A stretch of DNA of 64,000 bases from a bacterium. Its GTDB lineage: Bacteria > UBA8248. A program made the translations under genes and the position numbers. Shown piece by piece: positions 40,341 to 44,840 of this stretch. Position 1 is the first letter of the stretch. The number at the start of each line of letters is the position of its first letter. The notes below the pieces were generated by a model that ran no database searches, was not told the origin of the DNA, and saw only the letters and a program-made list of their open reading frames with translations. The DNA is taken from assembly GCA_965202625.1 (NCBI GenBank), contig CBDBBI010000010.1, forward strand, positions 1,824,001 through 1,888,000. Direction: 5' to 3'.

Positions 40341-40683
40341 GCGACGCGTCCACGATGAAATTCACCACCTCAACGCTCCGCCGTCATAGAAAAACAGAGG
40401 GAAGACGACAGAATCATCACCAAAACAAAACGGGCTGACTGGTTCAAAGAATACTGCTCTTCCTCTCGTTTGGTCGCTGAGTGAAAAAGCCGCGCCCCTC
40501 TTGGGGGGGGCTACCCGCCCAAGATGACCGTCAAAGCGCGCGCCACGGCGAGCACCCCGGACGAGCACGCGCAAATTGACACGATCCAGATTCTGATAAA
40601 AAATGGGAATTATATACTATAGTGCCCTGAAATAACCCCTAAGAATTAGTAAATTCAACAAATCTATTTATATTCATTTCTGC

Positions 40684-40713
40684 TTGACAAATCCAATAAG
40701 CATCCCGCATTAT
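40684..40713 (+). promoter_or_regulatory. Putative sigma70 promoter for the passenger transcript
   Basis: TTGACA-N18-CATTAT, ~10 nt upstream of the structured RNA. Confidence 0.5.
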
Positions 40714-40721
40714 CACTCCCA

Positions 40722-40881
40722 GATACCATCATAGAGAGCCCGTCTGTAAAGTCGGGTCGCTCGCTGAATACAATAGCCTTCGCACCCGATTCGGGGTAGC
40801 TCCCCGGACCAAGGTAAATAGGTGAGACCTCACTTTCTCTCTGTGATGGTAGCCAAGACCCGGCCTCGTCGAGATGCCGGG
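40722..40881 (+). ncRNA. Candidate structured RNA/leader of unassigned family
   Basis: 15-bp closing stem TACCATCATAGAGAG (40724-38)/CTCTCTGTGATGGTA (40837-51) with one G-U pair; it encloses several hairpins and is followed by a CCCGGC/GCCGGG hairpin; GC-rich within an AT-rich element. Confidence 0.55.
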
Positions 40882-40913
40882 AATAATGGTTATTTATTTC
40901 ACAGGAGAAAGTC

Positions 40914-41414
40914 ATGGCTTACGCGAAAATTGTCTTTGAAAATCCCAAGAATATGCCTCCCAAGAATATGTCTGGAATCAAAAAATATTTGTCTGGCCAA
41001 CACTATACGCGAAAAGCACCGGTTGGTTTTTCGTGGACAACACTCATGTTTTCATGGTTTGTGCCACTTCAGAGGCATAACTTCAAGTGGCTAGCAATCA
41101 TGTTTTTGTGTGGGTTTCCCGTTTCGATTGCAATATCTGCAAATATAACGGAATTTTCCACATATCCCCGATACATTGCATTCTTTATGATTTTTTTCAG
41201 TGTGATTTGCCGTCTTGTATTTCCTTTCATTTACAACAAAATCCATATCCAGGAATTGATCAAAAAGGGGTTTCGGGCAAAATCACTGCATATTTCATCT
41301 GCGTTGTTGTCTCCTAAAATAGATTCTTTGGATTCTCTTTCCACAAAATGGAATATGACAATTCCGCGCCTCGAAACCGAAAATACTGGAGAAGAATTTC
41401 CAGAAAAGGACTAA
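40914..41414 (+). CDS. DUF2628/HrgC-like membrane protein (IS passenger)
   Basis: AGGAG RBS; KAPVGFSWTT..F..F.PL.R..FKW and FPFIYNKIHIQELIKKGF. Confidence 0.75.
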   Translation: MAYAKIVFENPKNMPPKNMSGIKKYLSGQHYTRKAPVGFSWTTLMFSWFVPLQRHNFKWLAIMFLCGFPVSIAISANITEFSTYPRYIAFFMIFFSVICRLVFPFIYNKIHIQELIKKGFRAKSLHISSALLSPKIDSLDSLSTKWNMTIPRLETENTGEEFPEKD

Positions 41415-41417
41415 AAT

Positions 41418-41855
41418 GTGGAAGATCGCTCCAAGGAATTGATAGCTCTCAAAGCCAAGCTTAGCGACCGGGAATTTCATGTTCTGCAAAGCGAAATTGC
41501 TCGGCGGAAAAAATCCGTAAGTCTCACTTATGTTTTATGGTTTTTTCTTAGTGGTCTTGGCATCCACAAGTTTTACCTGGGCAAGATTTGGCAGGGGGTG
41601 CTTTATATAATTGCGCCAGCCATTGCCATCATATTTTTAGCCACGGGGTTTTTTATGAGTTTTGATCCATATGCAATAACCTCGTCCGAAGAATTGACGG
41701 AGGGCGAATTTATGATTGCGATAGGTTTTATGGGATTGATAGCCTATGGAATCTGTTGGTTCATAGACTTGTTCACCATTCAGAGTCAGGTGAACAGGTG
41801 CAATGAGGACATCGAAATTGAAACTGTTAAATCTCTTCTGGGAGCATCAAGATGA
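41418..41855 (+). CDS. TM2/NINE domain membrane protein (IS passenger)
   Basis: KKSVSLTYVLWFFLSGLGIHKFYLGK..QGVLY and WFIDLFTI..QV. Confidence 0.85.
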   Translation: MEDRSKELIALKAKLSDREFHVLQSEIARRKKSVSLTYVLWFFLSGLGIHKFYLGKIWQGVLYIIAPAIAIIFLATGFFMSFDPYAITSSEELTEGEFMIAIGFMGLIAYGICWFIDLFTIQSQVNRCNEDIEIETVKSLLGASR

Positions 41856-42172
41856 AATCTAATCGGAATCCCTCTTCTGCCAACCCCACTTACCATCATA
41901 TTCCGGCCAATATCGTTCACAGGCTGCTCGAATCGCTCGCCGCAGCTCTAGATACGATTTATCATCGTCCTCAAGAACTTTCCATTGAGGATGCAGTTCA
42001 TAACCTTCATCAGGTGATATTTGATGAAGTGGCCGTGGCGGGTCTGAGCGAAAATGAGAAAGCATTGTTTGATCAGTTGAAACAGCATTTTCTTTATCAG
42101 TGGGCAAAGCGTGAGAAGTTGCGTTCATTAAATTCTCCTAAAATAAGAAATAAAATTCAAAACTATTTATAA
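41852..42172 (+). CDS. Hypothetical protein (IS passenger)
   Basis: ATGA overlap with the TM2 gene; no family recognised. Confidence 0.55.
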   Translation: MKSNRNPSSANPTYHHIPANIVHRLLESLAAALDTIYHRPQELSIEDAVHNLHQVIFDEVAVAGLSENEKALFDQLKQHFLYQWAKREKLRSLNSPKIRNKIQNYL

Positions 42173-42184
42173 AGGAAATCAGAT

Positions 42185-42715
42185 ATGTTTAAGAAAATTA
42201 AATCAATTTCATTGACAGCAATTCTTTTTTGTTTTTTCTGTTTTTCAAATGTTGGCTTGTCATACGGAAAGGAGGTTGATTCTTTTCAGCAAATTATGAA
42301 TTATCTGTTCATTGGTAATGCGCTTGATGATGGTAAAGTAGACAATCTTTATTACGCAAAAATTTTTGATCGTGAGAAATGTATAGCTGGCTGGGAAGAT
42401 TCCGCAGGCGGATTTCTGAAAATATATTGGAACAACATAGACATAGATTCAATTAAATCTCAAGACAAATTCGCTGATGGCGTCTGGATGAAATACATAT
42501 TATTTTCTGGACATCCTGTTGTGGCGGAAGTTGAACTAAAGAATTTCTTTGTTATTATGGGTCTTGCAGCTAAAGGCGTTGCTACAGGAAAATACTCATT
42601 TATATCTATTCCTCTTGGACAACCTGAAACGCGTGATGATGAGCGTATGGCAAAAGCGATTCAGTTGCTGTATTCAAAACATTGCACTGGACTAAAGACA
42701 AAGATGGCATTTTGA
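42185..42715 (+). CDS. Hypothetical exported protein (IS passenger)
   Basis: AAGGA RBS; signal peptide MFKKIKSISLTAILFCFFCFSNVGLSYG. Confidence 0.7.
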   Translation: MFKKIKSISLTAILFCFFCFSNVGLSYGKEVDSFQQIMNYLFIGNALDDGKVDNLYYAKIFDREKCIAGWEDSAGGFLKIYWNNIDIDSIKSQDKFADGVWMKYILFSGHPVVAEVELKNFFVIMGLAAKGVATGKYSFISIPLGQPETRDDERMAKAIQLLYSKHCTGLKTKMAF

Positions 42716-42775
42716 TTGGGGGATGAAAATAAATGGAAACCCCAGCAGAAACTCCATCAGTAACAAATTGTGGAT

Positions 42776-42952
42776 TTATTTCGGCTTGTCCGTATGACGT
42801 ATCTGCACTGGACGCAATAAACGTTCCACCGCTTCATCCAGGCTCATTTCTTCCAACGTAAATTCTTCTTCTTTTTCGGCCTTGGAAGGCTGATACGTCG
42901 ATTTTGCGATTTCAATCACCGGTAATTTTTGTTGCGTCTTTTTCTTCGGCAT
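42776..42952 (-). CDS. 58-aa ORF coupled to the IS1595 transposase
   Basis: MPKKKTQQKLPVIEIAKSTYQPSKAEKEEEFTLEEMSLDEAVERLLRPVQIRHTDKPK; ATG 1 nt after the transposase stop; below the ORF-track length cutoff. Confidence 0.6.
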   Translation of the reverse strand: MPKKKTQQKLPVIEIAKSTYQPSKAEKEEEFTLEEMSLDEAVERLLRPVQIRHTDKPK

Positions 42953-42953
42953 T

Positions 42954-43892
42954 TTAGGCTACCAAATCCTTATACTTGAGCCGTTTCCCGTCCATTCCAT
43001 TCACCATTTTCTCCATCTGGTCAATAGTATCAAGAGGCCGAATGTTATGCCTACCGGAAAACTCATCAACATATTTCTGTAAATGCTTATGGCTCATTCG
43101 ATGATAGGTTCCATGAAATCCCTTTTTGAACATGGCCCAGAATGACTCCACGCCGTTGATGTGCGCCTGCTCGTTCACCCACTCTCCAAGGCCATGACTT
43201 ACGGCCTTGTGATTCTTGAGTCCTTTGTATGACTTGTGCTCGTCTGTATATTTAAGGGCGTTTCCATCCACATTCTCATTCACGAAATCATGTAGCGTTT
43301 CCTGCTTGGTGTCATCTACCACCTTGGCTCGAATCCGATTGGTGCTTCTATCCTTGATACCCACCACGGGAGCCTTTCCCACTGCGCCCCGCCCTTTGTT
43401 TTGTTTCTTGTCCTTGCGTTTGTTCTTTTCGAGTCCGCCCACATACGTCTCGTCTATTTCCACGGGGCCGTTGAAAAAATCTCCGTGAGCTTCAAATACC
43501 TTGCGAATCCGATGGGTCAAGTGCCAAGCGGATTTTTGACTGATTCCCAAGTCTCTATGGAGTTTCATACTGGAAACGCCCTTGAGATTGGTGATGCAGA
43601 AATAGAGTGCCAGCGCCCATACCTGAAAACCAAGATTTGAAGATTCCATGATGGTTTTGGTTCGGACGCTGAATCTTTTTCTGCATTCTTTCTCGCGGCA
43701 ACGAAAAGGCATGGTTTTGTGTTTTGCGCCTATGAGCACGTTCAGGGAACCGCAATAGGGACAACACACGCCCACTGGCCACCTCTTCTCGATAAACCAT
43801 TTCTCGGCGGCCTCATCATCAGGAAACATTCGCAAGGCATCCATGATACTCAATCCCTTTCTGAATGCCTTGCCGGGAGCTTTCTTTGCCAT
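42954..43892 (-). CDS. IS1595-family (ISXO2-like) DDE transposase
   Basis: Zn ribbon CPYCGS..CREKEC; HTH LHRDLGISQKSAW; VEIDETYVGG, YTDE and HINGVESFWA; YVDEFSGRHN; GAGGAG RBS before ATG 43892. Confidence 0.95.
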   Translation of the reverse strand: MAKKAPGKAFRKGLSIMDALRMFPDDEAAEKWFIEKRWPVGVCCPYCGSLNVLIGAKHKTMPFRCREKECRKRFSVRTKTIMESSNLGFQVWALALYFCITNLKGVSSMKLHRDLGISQKSAWHLTHRIRKVFEAHGDFFNGPVEIDETYVGGLEKNKRKDKKQNKGRGAVGKAPVVGIKDRSTNRIRAKVVDDTKQETLHDFVNENVDGNALKYTDEHKSYKGLKNHKAVSHGLGEWVNEQAHINGVESFWAMFKKGFHGTYHRMSHKHLQKYVDEFSGRHNIRPLDTIDQMEKMVNGMDGKRLKYKDLVA

Positions 43893-43932
43893 TGATTTCT
43901 CCTCATGTTTTCTCTTGTCATTCAATGGCAAA

Positions 43933-43961
43933 ATTATACTAAATAGTGCCCAAATTGTCAA
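43933..43961 (-). promoter_or_regulatory. Consensus sigma70 promoter of the transposase, containing a TIR-like operator
   Basis: Minus strand reads TTGACA-atttgggcactatttag(17)-TATAAT. Confidence 0.8.
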
Positions 43962-44014
43962 GCGTTATATTTTGGGTGTGATTGCATTCATGGGCACTAT
44001 TGTTTATAAGTCCC

Positions 44015-44840
44015 TAAAAAATCCAAAAAAAACAAGAGCAAAAACAAAATGGAGAGCCTGTTTATCGGAATCACCTCTACGAGCCTCCCGCGTTGTATGG
44101 CGAGCCAGAAGCTGTATGCCGAGATGATGTTGAAAAATCCTCCGACGAGCATCCACCAGACGCTCTTCTTACTCCATGTTCTGGGGTTGAGTTCATGGTT
44201 TTTGACGAACGGTATCGAGCCAAGTTGAAGGAGCGCGCCCGTGAGTGCTGTGGCGCAGATGCCGAAGGCGGGAGAGGGTATCGTCTGAAACGCGATCTTG
44301 CGAAGCGGCGGTGCGAAGGAGAAGAAAAAGGCCGCCAAAATCGGCATGAAGATAATGCCAGAATGGGGTCGCGCGACACGCCCCTGCGCCTCTCTCCTGA
44401 ACCAGCGGTATCGCCCCAAAGACGACGGCGAAAGTCCCCAGCGCAACGGGGAAGGTGATGGTCTCGCCAAGCAGGAGCACGGCCAGCAGCGCGCTCCACA
44501 TCGGATGGACTTGCAGCATGATTTGAGAGCGCGCCATTCCGATGAGCGCGGCTGATATAAAATTCAGGTTTCTCGATAAAAAATGAGAGCAAAATCCGGC
44601 CATCACGAACCAGAAAATCCCCGCTAGGGGCCATTTTTCGAGACCCGCGCCCGCCATATAAATGGCTGCGGCGTATGTCGTCAGCGTCAGGTTGCTCGCG
44701 AAGGTGAGCGCCTTTGGGCCCATCCATTGAAGAGCGCCGCGATAGACCGTTTGCGCCGCGGCCAGAAAAACGCCGGACAGGAACGACAACAACACGGGAG
44801 GGAGCGATTCGATCAAGGGCAATCCAGGAAGTCTAGAGGG
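44015..44840 (-). pseudogene. EamA/DMT transporter, frameshifted and interrupted by the IS (tail at 40511-40604)
   Basis: Overlapping EamA fragments in ORFs 44193-44885 and 43997-44470; coding sense resumes left of the IS (IFYQNLDRVNLRVLV...LTVILGG*). Confidence 0.8.

What the first reader, a model, noticed from the sequence alone, without database searches (positions are those of the whole stretch)
40722..40881. Unassigned, highly structured ~160-nt RNA just inside the left end of an IS1595 element
Seen: after a TTGACA-N18-CATTAT promoter, a 15-bp stem (40724-38/40837-51) whose single G-U pair favours the + strand. It closes a multibranch region: a GNRA-capped hairpin CCCGtCT-GTAA-AGtCGGG (40739-56), whose 3' arm can alternatively pair with ACCCGAT (40784-90) in a mutually exclusive fold; CGGGG-TAGCT-CCCCG (40792-806); and GTGA-GACC-TCAC (40822-33). 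A further CCCGGC/GCCGGG hairpin (40859-81) lies ~20 nt before the RBS. The region is GC-rich in an AT-rich element and has no convincing ORF. I could not match it from memory to known riboswitches, ribozymes or tRNA. Inference: a novel riboswitch-like leader of the passenger operon, an RNA antitoxin, or a transposon-encoded ncRNA.
Basis: partly seen in the sequence, partly recalled or inferred. Interest (0 to 1): 0.75.

Follow-up and report, generated by a model that had tools for sequence, protein, structure and literature searches.

The report
Conserved RNA leader of transposon cargo genes
The flagged stretch is a real, strongly conserved folded RNA that sits in front of the passenger genes of a jumping gene and of many similar genes in other bacteria, and it looks built to switch their translation on or off.

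Summary
Window 40722-40881 (+) folds better than all 200 shuffles (z -4.4). It belongs to a large RNA family that Rfam 15 does not catch. My covariance model finds 71 copies in 18 of 23 genomes of the genus. It also finds 72 matches in 69 of 80 loci from MAGs of at least seven phylum-level groups.

Covariation is strong: 91% of cells are paired against 65% after shuffling, and 33 of 42 pairs change on both sides.

Architecture: sigma-70 promoter, a 15-21 bp P1, P2, P3-internal loop-P4(-P5), an invariant GGCCCGG tail forming hairpin P6, then the ribosome-binding site.

The RNA always points into cargo genes, mostly for secreted or membrane proteins. It often lies inside IS1595-family transposons. 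Here that element is 40605-44014, with an 8-bp target duplication and an empty site in another metagenome.

The 3' strand of P1 is complementary, locus by locus, to that locus's own Shine-Dalgarno region (own -14.0 against cross -10.4 kcal/mol; 0 of 5000 permutations as low). P1 and an anti-SD helix therefore exclude each other.

Best reading: a portable, riboswitch-like translational control leader. The signal is unknown.

It shares its core module with sRNA-Xcc1 (RF02221), so it is a new, larger variant of that little-understood family.

The parts
40597..40604 (.). Left copy of the 8-bp target-site duplication TAAAAAAT
   Evidence: the same 8 bases stand at 44015-44022. A contig of run X4 joins 40604 to 44026 without the element.
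40605..44014 (.). IS1595-family transposon carrying passenger genes (3,410 bp)
   Evidence: Terminal inverted repeats 40605-27 / 43992-44014, 23 nt, 87%. Transposase with Pfam DDE_Tnp_IS1595 (1e-38) and Zn_ribbon_IS1595. Empty site in X4. The same GGGAATTATA ends are found in L076 from another phylum.
40684..40713 (+). Sigma-70-type promoter TTGACA-N18-CATTAT of the leader
   Evidence: An exact TTGAC lies 33-43 nt upstream of the model start in 31 of 63 distinct full-length relatives.
40722..40738 (+). P1 5' strand (acts as the anti-anti-SD)
   Evidence: Pairs with 40837-40854. All 17 P1 pairs show changes on both sides in 71 distinct relatives, with 95% of cells paired.
40739..40756 (+). P2 hairpin CCCGUC-loop-GUCGGG; the 3' arm CGGG is invariant
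   Evidence: 83-90% of cells paired, mostly one-sided C-to-U changes, and one pair with A-U/G-C exchange.
40760..40826 (+). Core module: P3 (40760-65 / 40821-26), the invariant internal loop GAAUACAAUA (40766-75) / AAAUA (40816-20), P4 (40776-80 / 40811-15) and branch P5 (40790-96 / 40802-08, loop UAGCU)
   Evidence: P4 5 of 5 and P5 8 of 8 pairs covary; P3 95% paired. The module is shared with RF02221 members.
40837..40854 (+). P1 3' strand, which doubles as the anti-Shine-Dalgarno strand
   Evidence: In the predicted ground state of the full leader, 40833-40855 pairs with 40887-40912.
40857..40881 (+). Invariant tail G(G/A)CCCGG and hairpin P6 (CCCGGC 40859-64 / GCCGGG 40876-81)
   Evidence: at least 5 of 8 tail bases pair downstream in 78 of 102 hits. 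Compensatory variants are seen in L086, L109, L126 and L054. It is not a terminator.
40887..40916 (+). Expression platform: a copy-like mimic of the P1 5' strand (UCACAGGAGA, 40899-908) holding the SD AGGAGA (40903-08) and the start codon ATG (40914-16)
   Evidence: Locus-specific complementarity to the P1 3' strand in relatives.
40914..42715 (+). Passenger genes: 166-aa membrane protein (40914-41414), TM2-domain protein (41418-41855), 106-aa protein (41852-42172), 176-aa protein with a hydrophobic N-terminus (42185-42715)
   Evidence: TM2, 1.4e-11. A sister element in run X5 replaces 40917-42768 with 1,357 other bases.
42776..43961 (-). Transposase (42954-43961) followed by a 58-aa ORF (42776-42952)
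   Evidence: The 58-aa protein has only 8 relatives, one of them named as from Nitrospinae.

Best explanation
The RNA is the 5' leader of the transposon's passenger operon. It is one copy of a widespread, multi-copy family of cis-acting translational control leaders.

Proposed mechanism:
1. Transcription starts at the leader's own sigma-70 promoter, a few bases before P1.
2. The first 17 nt (U) pair with 40837-54 (A). This closes a long P1 around a conserved core: P2, and P3-internal loop-P4-P5.
3. Strand A is also complementary to the Shine-Dalgarno region (D, 40887-40912). D imitates U.
4. With P1 closed, the SD is free and the cargo is translated.
5. With P1 open, or with U lost or occupied, A pairs with D. 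P6 caps that helix and the SD and AUG are buried.

The near-invariant internal loop and the CGGG/CCCGG segments most likely form the site where a small ligand or a protein tips this balance.

What is shown:
- the fold
- the covariation
- the promoter
- the orientation relative to cargo
- the locus-specific A:D complementarity
- the linkage to mobile elements

What is inferred:
- that the two states regulate translation
- which state is 'on'
- that a ligand or protein decides between them
For: Real structured RNA on this strand:
- z -4.39 for the + strand against -2.43 for the - strand.
- In 71 distinct relatives, 91.1% of cells are paired against 65.0% after shuffling and 36-52% after sliding the partner. 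33 of 42 pairs change on both sides.
- G-U plus U-G pairs number 265 against 55 A-C plus C-A.

It is a leader:
- TTGAC lies at a fixed distance in 31 of 63 relatives.
- No terminator follows it.
- An RBS and ATG follow 20-60 nt downstream in most loci.
- A metatranscriptome contig spans 40805-40960 without any difference (weak evidence).

There is a switch:
- The P1 3' strand binds its own SD region better than the SD regions of other loci. In the broad set, -13.98 against -10.44 kcal/mol, n=33, with 0 of 5000 permutations as low.
- In the genus set, -11.60 against -10.18, n=17, p 0.018.
- The duplex covers positions -23 to -9 before the ATG in at least 70% of loci.
- In the window, P1 is the predicted fold for transcripts ending at or before 40900. 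It is fully replaced by the anti-SD helix once 40916 is reached: MFE -81.0 against -73.6 kcal/mol with P1 enforced, and SD unpaired probability 0.00.

It travels with cargo:
- IS1595 transposase genes lie beside copies in several phyla, in two layouts. The RNA is always upstream of the cargo.
- Cargo was swapped behind the same leader in run X5.

The same logic holds in 10 genuine sRNA-Xcc1 loci: -16.9 against -11.0 kcal/mol, with 0 of 5000 permutations as low.
Against: - In 32 of 34 relatives the P1 state is predicted to be about 10 kcal/mol more stable than any fold with the P1 5' strand unpaired. Most copies would therefore sit 'on' unless something removes or occupies that strand. A 15-21 bp P1 is unusually long for a riboswitch.
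- The downstream genes give no coherent clue to a ligand. Among 44 first ORFs: CsgG 2, OMP beta-barrel 2, TM2 2, and mostly no Pfam family.
- The genus replicate of the anti-SD test is only modestly significant (p 0.018). My start-codon calls there are crude (15 of 34 hits had no call, 2 more were dropped as duplicate P1 strands, and at least one call is visibly wrong).
- Energies come from nearest-neighbour models that ignore tertiary structure.
- No direct expression data exist. The RNA contig cannot show ends or rule out DNA carry-over.
- CGGG and CCCGG are invariant although their partners vary. That hints at a further pairing or contact I could not resolve.
Confidence: 0.55

Rival explanations
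1. It is a processing or stability leader with no sensed signal. The long 5'-terminal P1 protects the 5' end or is cut by RNase III. The conserved core binds a housekeeping protein. The A:D pairing merely silences messages whose 5' strand has been lost. In effect it would be a natural 'insulator' that lets any cargo be expressed in any host.
For: - P1 is 15-21 bp, perfect, and starts at the transcript's 5' end.
- P1 is much more stable than the alternative fold in 32 of 34 loci.
- The family sits in front of unrelated cargo in many phyla and on mobile elements.
- An 88-nt stable species was reported for the relative sRNA-Xcc1 (PMC2996969, passages read).
Against: - A simple stabiliser needs no near-invariant 16-nt internal loop, and no SD mimic re-tuned in every copy.
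- In the window itself the two states are close enough for the alternative to be the predicted ground state.
Confidence: 0.2
2. It is an independent trans-acting small RNA, as its relative sRNA-Xcc1 is annotated.
For: - It shares its core module with RF02221.
- RF02221's founder was seen as a band of about 100 nt on Northern blots (PMC2996969).
- The preprint read cites its description as a trans-acting sRNA (Chen et al. 2011). I did not read that paper.
Against: - No terminator follows P6.
- The variable parts are locked in helices.
- The only locus-specific complementarity found is to the RNA's own downstream SD region.
- Copies always have a co-oriented ORF close behind.
Confidence: 0.08
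3. It serves transposition: a guide, scaffold or regulator for the IS1595 transposase, or an antitoxin-like maintenance RNA.
For: - It lies 117 nt inside the left end here (40605 to 40722), and 52-146 nt inside the end in L021, L069, L073, L075 and L076.
- Transposase genes are strongly enriched next to copies.
Against: - In the other common layout the RNA lies in the middle of the element, behind the transposase gene. Its position is fixed relative to cargo, not to the end.
- 22 of 29 copies in five genomes have no PF12762 match within 3 kb, and 7 of 15 PF12762 matches have no RNA nearby.
- The variable segments are base-paired internally, so they are not free to read DNA.
Confidence: 0.05
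4. The conserved sequence acts as DNA, for example as a homology patch or a folded single-strand site for exchanging cargo, in the manner of an integron attC site.
For: - Cargo is exchanged between the leader and the transposase module in X5.
- P1 is conserved in structure rather than in sequence.
- Relatives lie in integron cassettes (preprint 10.1101/2025.06.18.660453, passages read).
Against: - Strand asymmetry: 265 G-U against 55 A-C pairs.
- A promoter at fixed distance.
- SD mimicry.
- The interior is conserved in sequence, unlike what I recall of attC sites, whose interior varies (recalled, not from a call).
Confidence: 0.04

Closest known systems
sRNA-Xcc1 (Rfam RF02221), an RNA in integron cassettes of Xanthomonas and other proteobacteria
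   Same: - The same core module: GUCGGG, then a short stem, the internal loop (U)GAAUACAAnA / (G)AAAUA(G), a second short stem, and a downstream CCCGGC segment.
- A model built only from my family (R2) hits 6 of 10 genuine RF02221 sites at E below 0.05. The two best are at about 2e-5 in a 27.5-kb search.
- Both lie upstream of diverse genes on mobile DNA, and both are multi-copy (preprint passages).
- In both, the segment 3' of the module is complementary to an upstream segment and to the locus's own SD region.
   Different: - The window scores 15.4 bits against a cut-off of 53.
- My full model hits only 1 of 10 RF02221 loci (21 bits).
- In RF02221, GUCGGG and CCCGGC pair with each other as the closing stem, and a local second hairpin follows the module.
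- Here each of the two has its own covarying partner (P2, P6). The place of the second hairpin is taken by the 3' strand of a long P1, whose 5' strand lies upstream. Many copies add branch P5.
- RF02221 loci carry a terminator-like hairpin between the upstream segment and the RNA, and a small hairpin with a U-run after it.
Translational 'ON' riboswitches such as the add adenine riboswitch (recalled, not tested here)
   Same: It works alike on paper. The 3' strand of the closing helix P1 can pair either with its 5' partner (SD free) or with the SD region (SD buried). A conserved multi-helix core sits inside P1.
   Different: - No ligand is known, and no coherent gene set points to one.
- P1 is two to three times longer.
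- The family is carried on transposons.
- There is no sequence or fold relation.
Fold-back inhibition in IS10/IS50 (recalled): RNA pairing that hides the transposase RBS in read-through transcripts
   Same: A transposon-borne mRNA structure that decides whether an RBS is accessible, depending on which 5' sequence is present.
   Different: There it controls the transposase and blocks transcripts that begin outside the element. Here it controls the cargo, and the upstream strand frees the RBS rather than hiding it.
Transposon-encoded structured RNAs: IS110 bridge RNA and IS200/605 omega RNA (bridge RNA paper seen only in the search listing; IS110 and omega RNA passages of another preprint read)
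   Same: A covarying ncRNA encoded near the end of an insertion sequence.
   Different: Those RNAs bind the recombinase or nuclease and read DNA with free loops. Here the RNA tracks the cargo, its variable parts are paired, and most copies lack a transposase.

Membership tests
sRNA-Xcc1 (RF02221) | Infernal score at or above the family's gathering cut-off (53 bits) | tested here: not met
   15.4 bits, E 8.3, at 40750-40873. No match at gathering in the window or in 14 other loci.
sRNA-Xcc1 (RF02221) | Core module: stem, GAAUACAA / GAAAUA internal loop, stem | tested here: met
   R2, built from 16 of my short-type copies, finds 6 of 10 genuine RF02221 sites at E below 0.05 with filters off. Sequences were compared.
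sRNA-Xcc1 (RF02221) | Closing stem formed by GUCGGG with CCCGGC | tested here: inconclusive
   Both segments are invariant here, and RNAalifold pairs them. But rare tail variants covary with the downstream arm (P6) rather than with GUCGGG (L086, L109). P2 also has support of its own.
sRNA-Xcc1 (RF02221) | Local second hairpin between the module and the closing stem | tested here: not met
   That position holds the P1 3' strand, which pairs with the far upstream strand. 17 of 17 pairs covary.
Riboswitch (cis-acting ligand-sensing leader) | Conserved, covarying aptamer-like fold in a 5' UTR | tested here: met
Riboswitch (cis-acting ligand-sensing leader) | Expression platform with mutually exclusive pairings that involve the SD or a terminator | tested here: met
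   Locus-specific complementarity of the P1 3' strand to the SD region. A predicted fold switch in the window.
Riboswitch (cis-acting ligand-sensing leader) | Direct, selective binding of a small ligand | not testable with these tools
   Needs in-line probing, SHAPE or calorimetry.
Riboswitch (cis-acting ligand-sensing leader) | Controlled genes share a pathway that points to the ligand | tested here: not met
   44 first ORFs: scattered envelope and secreted families, mostly with no Pfam hit. 27 of 33 have a hydrophobic N-terminus.
IS1595-family transposon (the host element) | DDE transposase of the IS1595 type with an N-terminal zinc ribbon | tested here: met
   PF12762 at 1e-38 and PF12760 at 2.8e-6.
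   Inverted repeats of 23 nt. TAAAAAAT on both sides. Empty site in X4.

The most novel reading that the evidence does not exclude
This is a new, widespread riboswitch class with an unknown ligand. It rides on IS1595-family transposons, and in its reduced sRNA-Xcc1 form on integron cassettes. It gates translation of horizontally moving envelope and secreted proteins. It would then be a portable sensor-plus-promoter cassette that makes foreign cargo conditionally expressible in at least seven phylum-level groups. The 'trans-acting sRNA' sRNA-Xcc1 would be a partial view of the same cis-acting switch.
Probability: 0.3. Interest if true: 0.9.

Novelty: new variant of a known kind. Interest (0 to 1): 0.78.

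Why it matters
A large, multi-copy family of structured RNAs, spread over many Gram-negative phyla and absent from Rfam 15, has apparently gone undescribed.

- It links a defined RNA switch architecture to transposon cargo. It suggests how passenger genes bring their own promoter and translational control wherever they land.
- It offers a concrete, testable reinterpretation of sRNA-Xcc1. That RNA has been catalogued since 2010-2011 with no mechanism established in the passages I read.
- If a ligand exists, it would mark a signal that many bacteria use to regulate surface proteins. Many of the named hits are marine or sponge-associated MAGs.

Tried and rejected
Rfam:
- At gathering score: window and 14 relatives, nothing.
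- At E up to 10 or 1: only chance-level hits, apart from the weak sRNA-Xcc1 lead.

BLAST of the leader region (40600-40920) against plasmid and phage collections: no match.

RF02221 in the window's own genome: only sub-threshold hits elsewhere, and none over the cut-off in the 14 control genomes.

Pairings that were not upheld:
- The pseudoknot or alternative pairing of UCGGGUC with GGCCCGG. It could not be confirmed, because both sides are invariant and rare variants favour P6.
It is not conserved.
- The GTGA-GACC-TCAC hairpin. It is not conserved and is replaced by P3.

MITE reading: rejected, because P1 differs between copies within one genome.

The 58-aa ORF as a dedicated partner: unlikely, with only 8 relatives, one of them named as from Nitrospinae.

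Sequencing runs:
- X6 (RNA) covers only 40805-40960 and one short transposase stretch as contigs. That says nothing about ends, level or absence elsewhere.
- Holes in X4 and X5 cover are not findings.

Literature (and 'find' in a 2026 preprint): I found no description of an RNA tied to IS1595 elements. These searches cover only the held library. Supplements were not consulted.

I did not use complex prediction, structure prediction or the protein atlas. No claim here needs them.
Full report
**1. The observation**

- A TTGACA-N18-CATTAT promoter at 40684-40713.
- A perfect 15-bp stem, 40724-38 with 40837-51. It extends to G40722-C40854.
- Hairpins at 40739-56, 40792-806 and 40859-81.

The + strand of 40722-40881 folds at -66.6 kcal/mol. 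None of 200 dinucleotide shuffles does as well (mean -48.1, z -4.39). The - strand is less exceptional (z -2.43). The stretch is a G+C island (0.52) in an element of about 0.40.

**2. The host element**

- Inverted repeats of 23 nt at 40605-27 and 43992-44014 bound a 3,410-bp element.
- Its transposase (42954-43961, - strand) matches DDE_Tnp_IS1595 (1e-38) and Zn_ribbon_IS1595.
- TAAAAAAT is duplicated at 40597-604 and 44015-22.
- A contig of a sponge-metagenome run joins 40604 to 44026 without the element. That is an empty site.
- A contig from another sample of the same organism label keeps the leader up to the start codon (40916). It then carries 1,357 different bases in place of 40917-42768, and resumes before the 58-aa ORF and the transposase. 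So cargo is exchanged behind a constant leader.

**3. The RNA belongs to a family**

BLAST in 61 related genomes found the core (about 40750-40867) in several same-genus genomes and in two genera of another family, often in several copies.

Hand comparison showed three things.
- The long stem changes sequence but stays paired.
- The blocks GUCGGGUC-CYCGC-UGAAUACAAnA and GAAUAGGYGRG, and the tail GGCCCGG, are almost invariant.
- There are two forms: a long one with branch P5, and a short one with P4 as a plain hairpin.

On an 8-sequence alignment (A2), my structure of 42 pairs was 94.9% paired. 17 pairs changed on both sides, against a shuffled mean of 8.2 (0 of 500 shuffles as high). With the partner slid, 40-52% of cells were paired.

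The covariance model R1 found:
- 71 matches at E up to 1e-3 in 18 of 23 genomes of the genus, up to 9 per genome. These include a second, short-type copy in the window's own genome at G000:C2:19854-19968.
- Within the class, matches only in that genus (17 of 22) and in 2 of 7 genomes of one other family. There were none in 19 genomes of the other genera of its own family.

The distribution is therefore patchy.

**4. Breadth**

By their titles, the records are MAGs of Alpha- and Gammaproteobacteria, Nitrospirales, Nitrospinota, Acidobacteriota, Gemmatimonadota, Rhodothermales, Verrucomicrobiota and others. Many carry names of marine or sponge-associated bins.

- R1 matched 72 times in 69 of the 80 loci returned (E up to 0.01). 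The other 11 loci had no match.
- Whole-genome searches of five of these MAGs gave 2 to 11 copies each.
- On the 71 distinct aligned sequences, 91.1% of cells pair. The figures are 65.0% after shuffling and 36-52% after sliding.
- 33 of 42 pairs change on both sides: P1 17 of 17, P4 5 of 5, P5 8 of 8, P3 2 of 6, P2 1 of 6, the rest mostly one-sided.
- That alignment was fitted to the model, which flatters it. Even so, the margin is large, and A2 was a plain MAFFT alignment.
- G-U plus U-G pairs outnumber A-C plus C-A by 265 to 55. The folding strand is therefore the one that reads into the cargo.

The window's organism is probably a member of Nitrospinota.
- Same-genus copies match, over the flanks printed, copies in records titled Nitrospinaceae or Nitrospinota (L089 matches L011).
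- The closest named homologue of the 58-aa ORF is labelled Nitrospinae.

**5. Known families**

Rfam 15 has nothing at gathering score in the window or in 14 other loci. It has nothing meaningful at relaxed thresholds.

One lead was a 15.4-bit, E 8.3 alignment to sRNA-Xcc1 (RF02221, cut-off 53). It matched the AAUACAA...GAAUA loop.

I fetched genuine RF02221 members from 151 gammaproteobacterial genomes. 9 genomes had matches over the cut-off. I used ten loci and left aside two from genomes flagged as unpublished.
- They show the same module: GUCGGG, a short stem, (U)GAAUACAAnA, a short stem and loop, (G)AAAUA(G), the return strand, and later CCCGGC.
- R1 hit only one of the ten, at 21 bits.
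- A 52-position model of the module alone (R2) was built only from 16 short-type copies of my family. It hit 6 of the 10 RF02221 sites at E below 0.05 (best 1.7e-5 and 2.5e-5). Four more sites came in between E 0.08 and 4.

The two families are related, but the architecture differs. See the closest-known comparison and the membership test.

**6. What the RNA is attached to**

In the flanks of 66 listed hits, a TTGAC box precedes P1. It is exact in 31 of 63 distinct full-length hits, 33-43 nt before the model start with a mode of 35-36.

After P1 comes the tail and a G+C-rich hairpin, P6.
- At least 5 of 8 tail bases pair downstream in 78 of 102 distinct hits.
- The shuffled control is only slightly lower (4.6 against 5.4 bases).
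- Rare tail variants are compensated in L086, L109, L126 and L054.

An RBS and ATG follow some 20-60 nt later.

The first ORFs mostly begin with a hydrophobic segment: 27 of 33 by a crude hydropathy test, 8 of them with a lipobox-like motif. Pfam on 44 of them gave CsgG 2, OMP_b-brl 2, TM2 2, Surface_Ag_2 2, and single hits to Peptidase_M43, SNase, Rhodanese, TbpB_B_D and HTH families. Most had no hit.

In the window the cargo is a 166-aa membrane protein, a TM2-domain protein, a 106-aa protein and a 176-aa protein.

**7. Link to IS1595 elements**

tblastn with the window's transposase found homologues (36-60% identity) in the loci of RNA copies from several phyla. There are two layouts.
- Transposase, then RNA, then cargo, all on one strand: for example L005, L007, L027, L043, L057, L104, L080, L088, L112, L004, L066.
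- RNA, then cargo, facing the transposase: the window, L120, L062, L076, L073, L058, L069, L029, L055, L115.

In five genomes of the genus, 7 of 29 RNA copies lie within 3 kb of a PF12762 match. 8 of 15 PF12762 matches lie within 3 kb of an RNA copy.

The terminal motif GGGAATTATA recurs in other phyla. In L076 it bounds a 3.07-kb element with the RNA 101 nt inside the end. That motif, with at most one mismatch, stands in a fitting orientation near 31 of 106 hits. Part of that number is expected by chance.

The RNA is thus a frequent component of cargo-carrying IS1595-family elements. It is positioned relative to the cargo, not the end, and most copies are not next to a transposase today.

**8. 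The switch**

Comparing RF02221 loci, I saw that the segment 3' of the module is complementary both to an upstream segment and to the SD region of the downstream gene. The same holds here. P1's 3' strand (CUCUCUGUGA...) can pair with UCACAGGAGA (40899-908), which contains the SD. That region resembles P1's 5' strand (UCAUAGAGAG).

I tested this by comparing each locus's own pairing energy with all cross-locus pairings.

| Set | n | Own (kcal/mol) | Cross (kcal/mol) | Permutations |
|---|---|---|---|---|
| Broad set, P1 3' strand vs SD region | 33 | -13.98 | -10.44 | 0 of 5000 as low; Mann-Whitney 4.5e-6 |
| Genus set, P1 3' strand vs SD region | 17 | -11.60 | -10.18 | p 0.018 |
| RF02221 loci, 3' segment vs SD region | 10 | -16.92 | -10.99 | 0 of 5000 as low |
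| RF02221 loci, 3' segment vs upstream 80 nt | 10 | -25.98 | -19.12 | 0 of 5000 as low |

Caveats on the sets:
- The broad set holds loci with an ATG preceded by an SD-like motif; the others were dropped.
- In the genus set, 15 of 34 hits lacked a simple start call, 2 more were dropped as duplicate P1 strands, and at least one call is visibly wrong.

The best duplex covers positions -23 to -9 before the ATG in at least 70% of loci.

For the window:
- P1 is the predicted fold of transcripts ending at 40855, 40885 or 40900 (15 of 15 pairs).
- It is wholly replaced once the transcript reaches 40916.
- The full leader's minimum is -81.0 kcal/mol, with 40833-55 paired to 40887-912 under P6.
- With P1 enforced the energy is -73.6, and the SD has an equilibrium unpaired probability of 0.00.

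In 34 relatives the balance is the other way.
- P1 enforced averages -81.5, against -71.1 with the 5' strand held single.
- The alternative is lower in only 2 of 34.
- Freeing the 3' strand raises the paired fraction of the SD region from 0.43 to 0.62.

**9. Reading**

The simplest account is a cis-acting translational control leader.
- U:A (P1) leaves the SD open. A:D closes it.
- The near-invariant core is the part that receives the signal.

I cannot say what the signal is.

The long P1 and its predicted dominance in most copies argue against a simple equilibrium switch. They fit kinetic control, a protein partner, or a design in which loss or capture of the 5' strand shuts translation off.

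The invariance of CGGG and CCCGG, despite variable partners, suggests a further contact. It may be the helix that these two segments form in RF02221.

The rivals (stability or processing leader, trans-acting sRNA, transposition RNA, DNA-level site) are weighed in their own section above.

**10. Literature**

Five searches of the held library found no description of an RNA tied to IS1595 elements or of this motif. A term search inside a 2026 preprint on prokaryotic noncoding families found none either (it has no mention of IS1595).

For sRNA-Xcc1 I read passages of two papers.
- PMC2996969: discovery, an 88-nt species, Northern band of about 100 nt.
- bioRxiv 10.1101/2025.06.18.660453: the RNA lies upstream of symE in the most widespread Xanthomonas integron cassette, oriented against the integron's Pc promoter.

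Chen et al. 2011 is known to me only through that preprint's text and reference list. Supplements were not available and might hold motif lists that bear on novelty.

**11. Verdict**

This is a real, ancient-looking or widely transferred, strongly covarying leader RNA with an evident expression platform. It is carried with cargo on IS1595-family transposons, is distantly related to sRNA-Xcc1, and is not in Rfam 15. It is a new variant of a known but poorly understood kind. The mechanism is proposed, not shown.

Noticed in passing
window 40597-44022: Complete IS1595-family transposon with an 8-bp duplication TAAAAAAT. Run X4 holds the empty site, joining 40604 to 44026.
   Followed up: yes
window 40917-42768: In run X5 a sister element has 1,357 different bases here. 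It keeps the leader up to the ATG and keeps the 58-aa ORF and transposase module. This is cargo exchange with sharp borders.
   Followed up: partly
window 42776-42952 (-): A 58-aa lysine- and glutamate-rich ORF directly after the transposase gene. It has only 8 relatives in 5.8 billion proteins; the only one with a source name is from Nitrospinae. Function unknown. A similar 52-aa ORF lies downstream of the cargo in L007.
   Followed up: partly
L148 (G000:C2:16500-22500), RNA at L148:3355-3469 (-): The genome's second, short-type copy precedes an A+T-rich gene for a small protein with a hydrophobic N-terminus. Next to it are three paralogous genes of about 140 aa, all starting MRKFHLNVT.HAE.RMSQRGVR. 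The contig is 22.6 kb and may be mobile.
   Followed up: no
L067:1421-2306: Four matches to the RNA model within about 900 bases, two on each strand, in a Vicinamibacterales MAG. This is a divergent or tandem cluster.
   Followed up: no
L008 / L053 (G042:C5, about 702503-702637): A copy whose P1 5' strand and P2 5' arm are missing. The IS-end motif GGGAATTATAT abuts the CGGG of P2, as if an IS1595 element had landed in, or recombined at, the RNA.
   Followed up: no
L149-L160 (RF02221 loci), about 70 nt upstream of each RNA: Genuine sRNA-Xcc1 copies are preceded by a terminator-like hairpin plus a U-run. Its loop often reads ACCCGUCAG and could pair with the RNA's GUCGGG. A segment complementary to the RNA's 3' half stands before that hairpin. 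The Rfam model may describe only part of a larger element.
   Followed up: partly
L160:2588-2640 (+): About 1 kb from an sRNA-Xcc1 copy, the module model R2 finds a second site (E 0.0086). It has the CGGGUCGCCCGC spelling typical of the family described here.
   Followed up: no
window 40664-40915 (-) and 40822-41094 (+): Two mechanical ORFs of 83 and 90 aa overlap the RNA. The 83-aa ORF has no Pfam match; the 90-aa ORF was not scanned. The covariation pattern of the region is that of RNA helices.
   Followed up: partly
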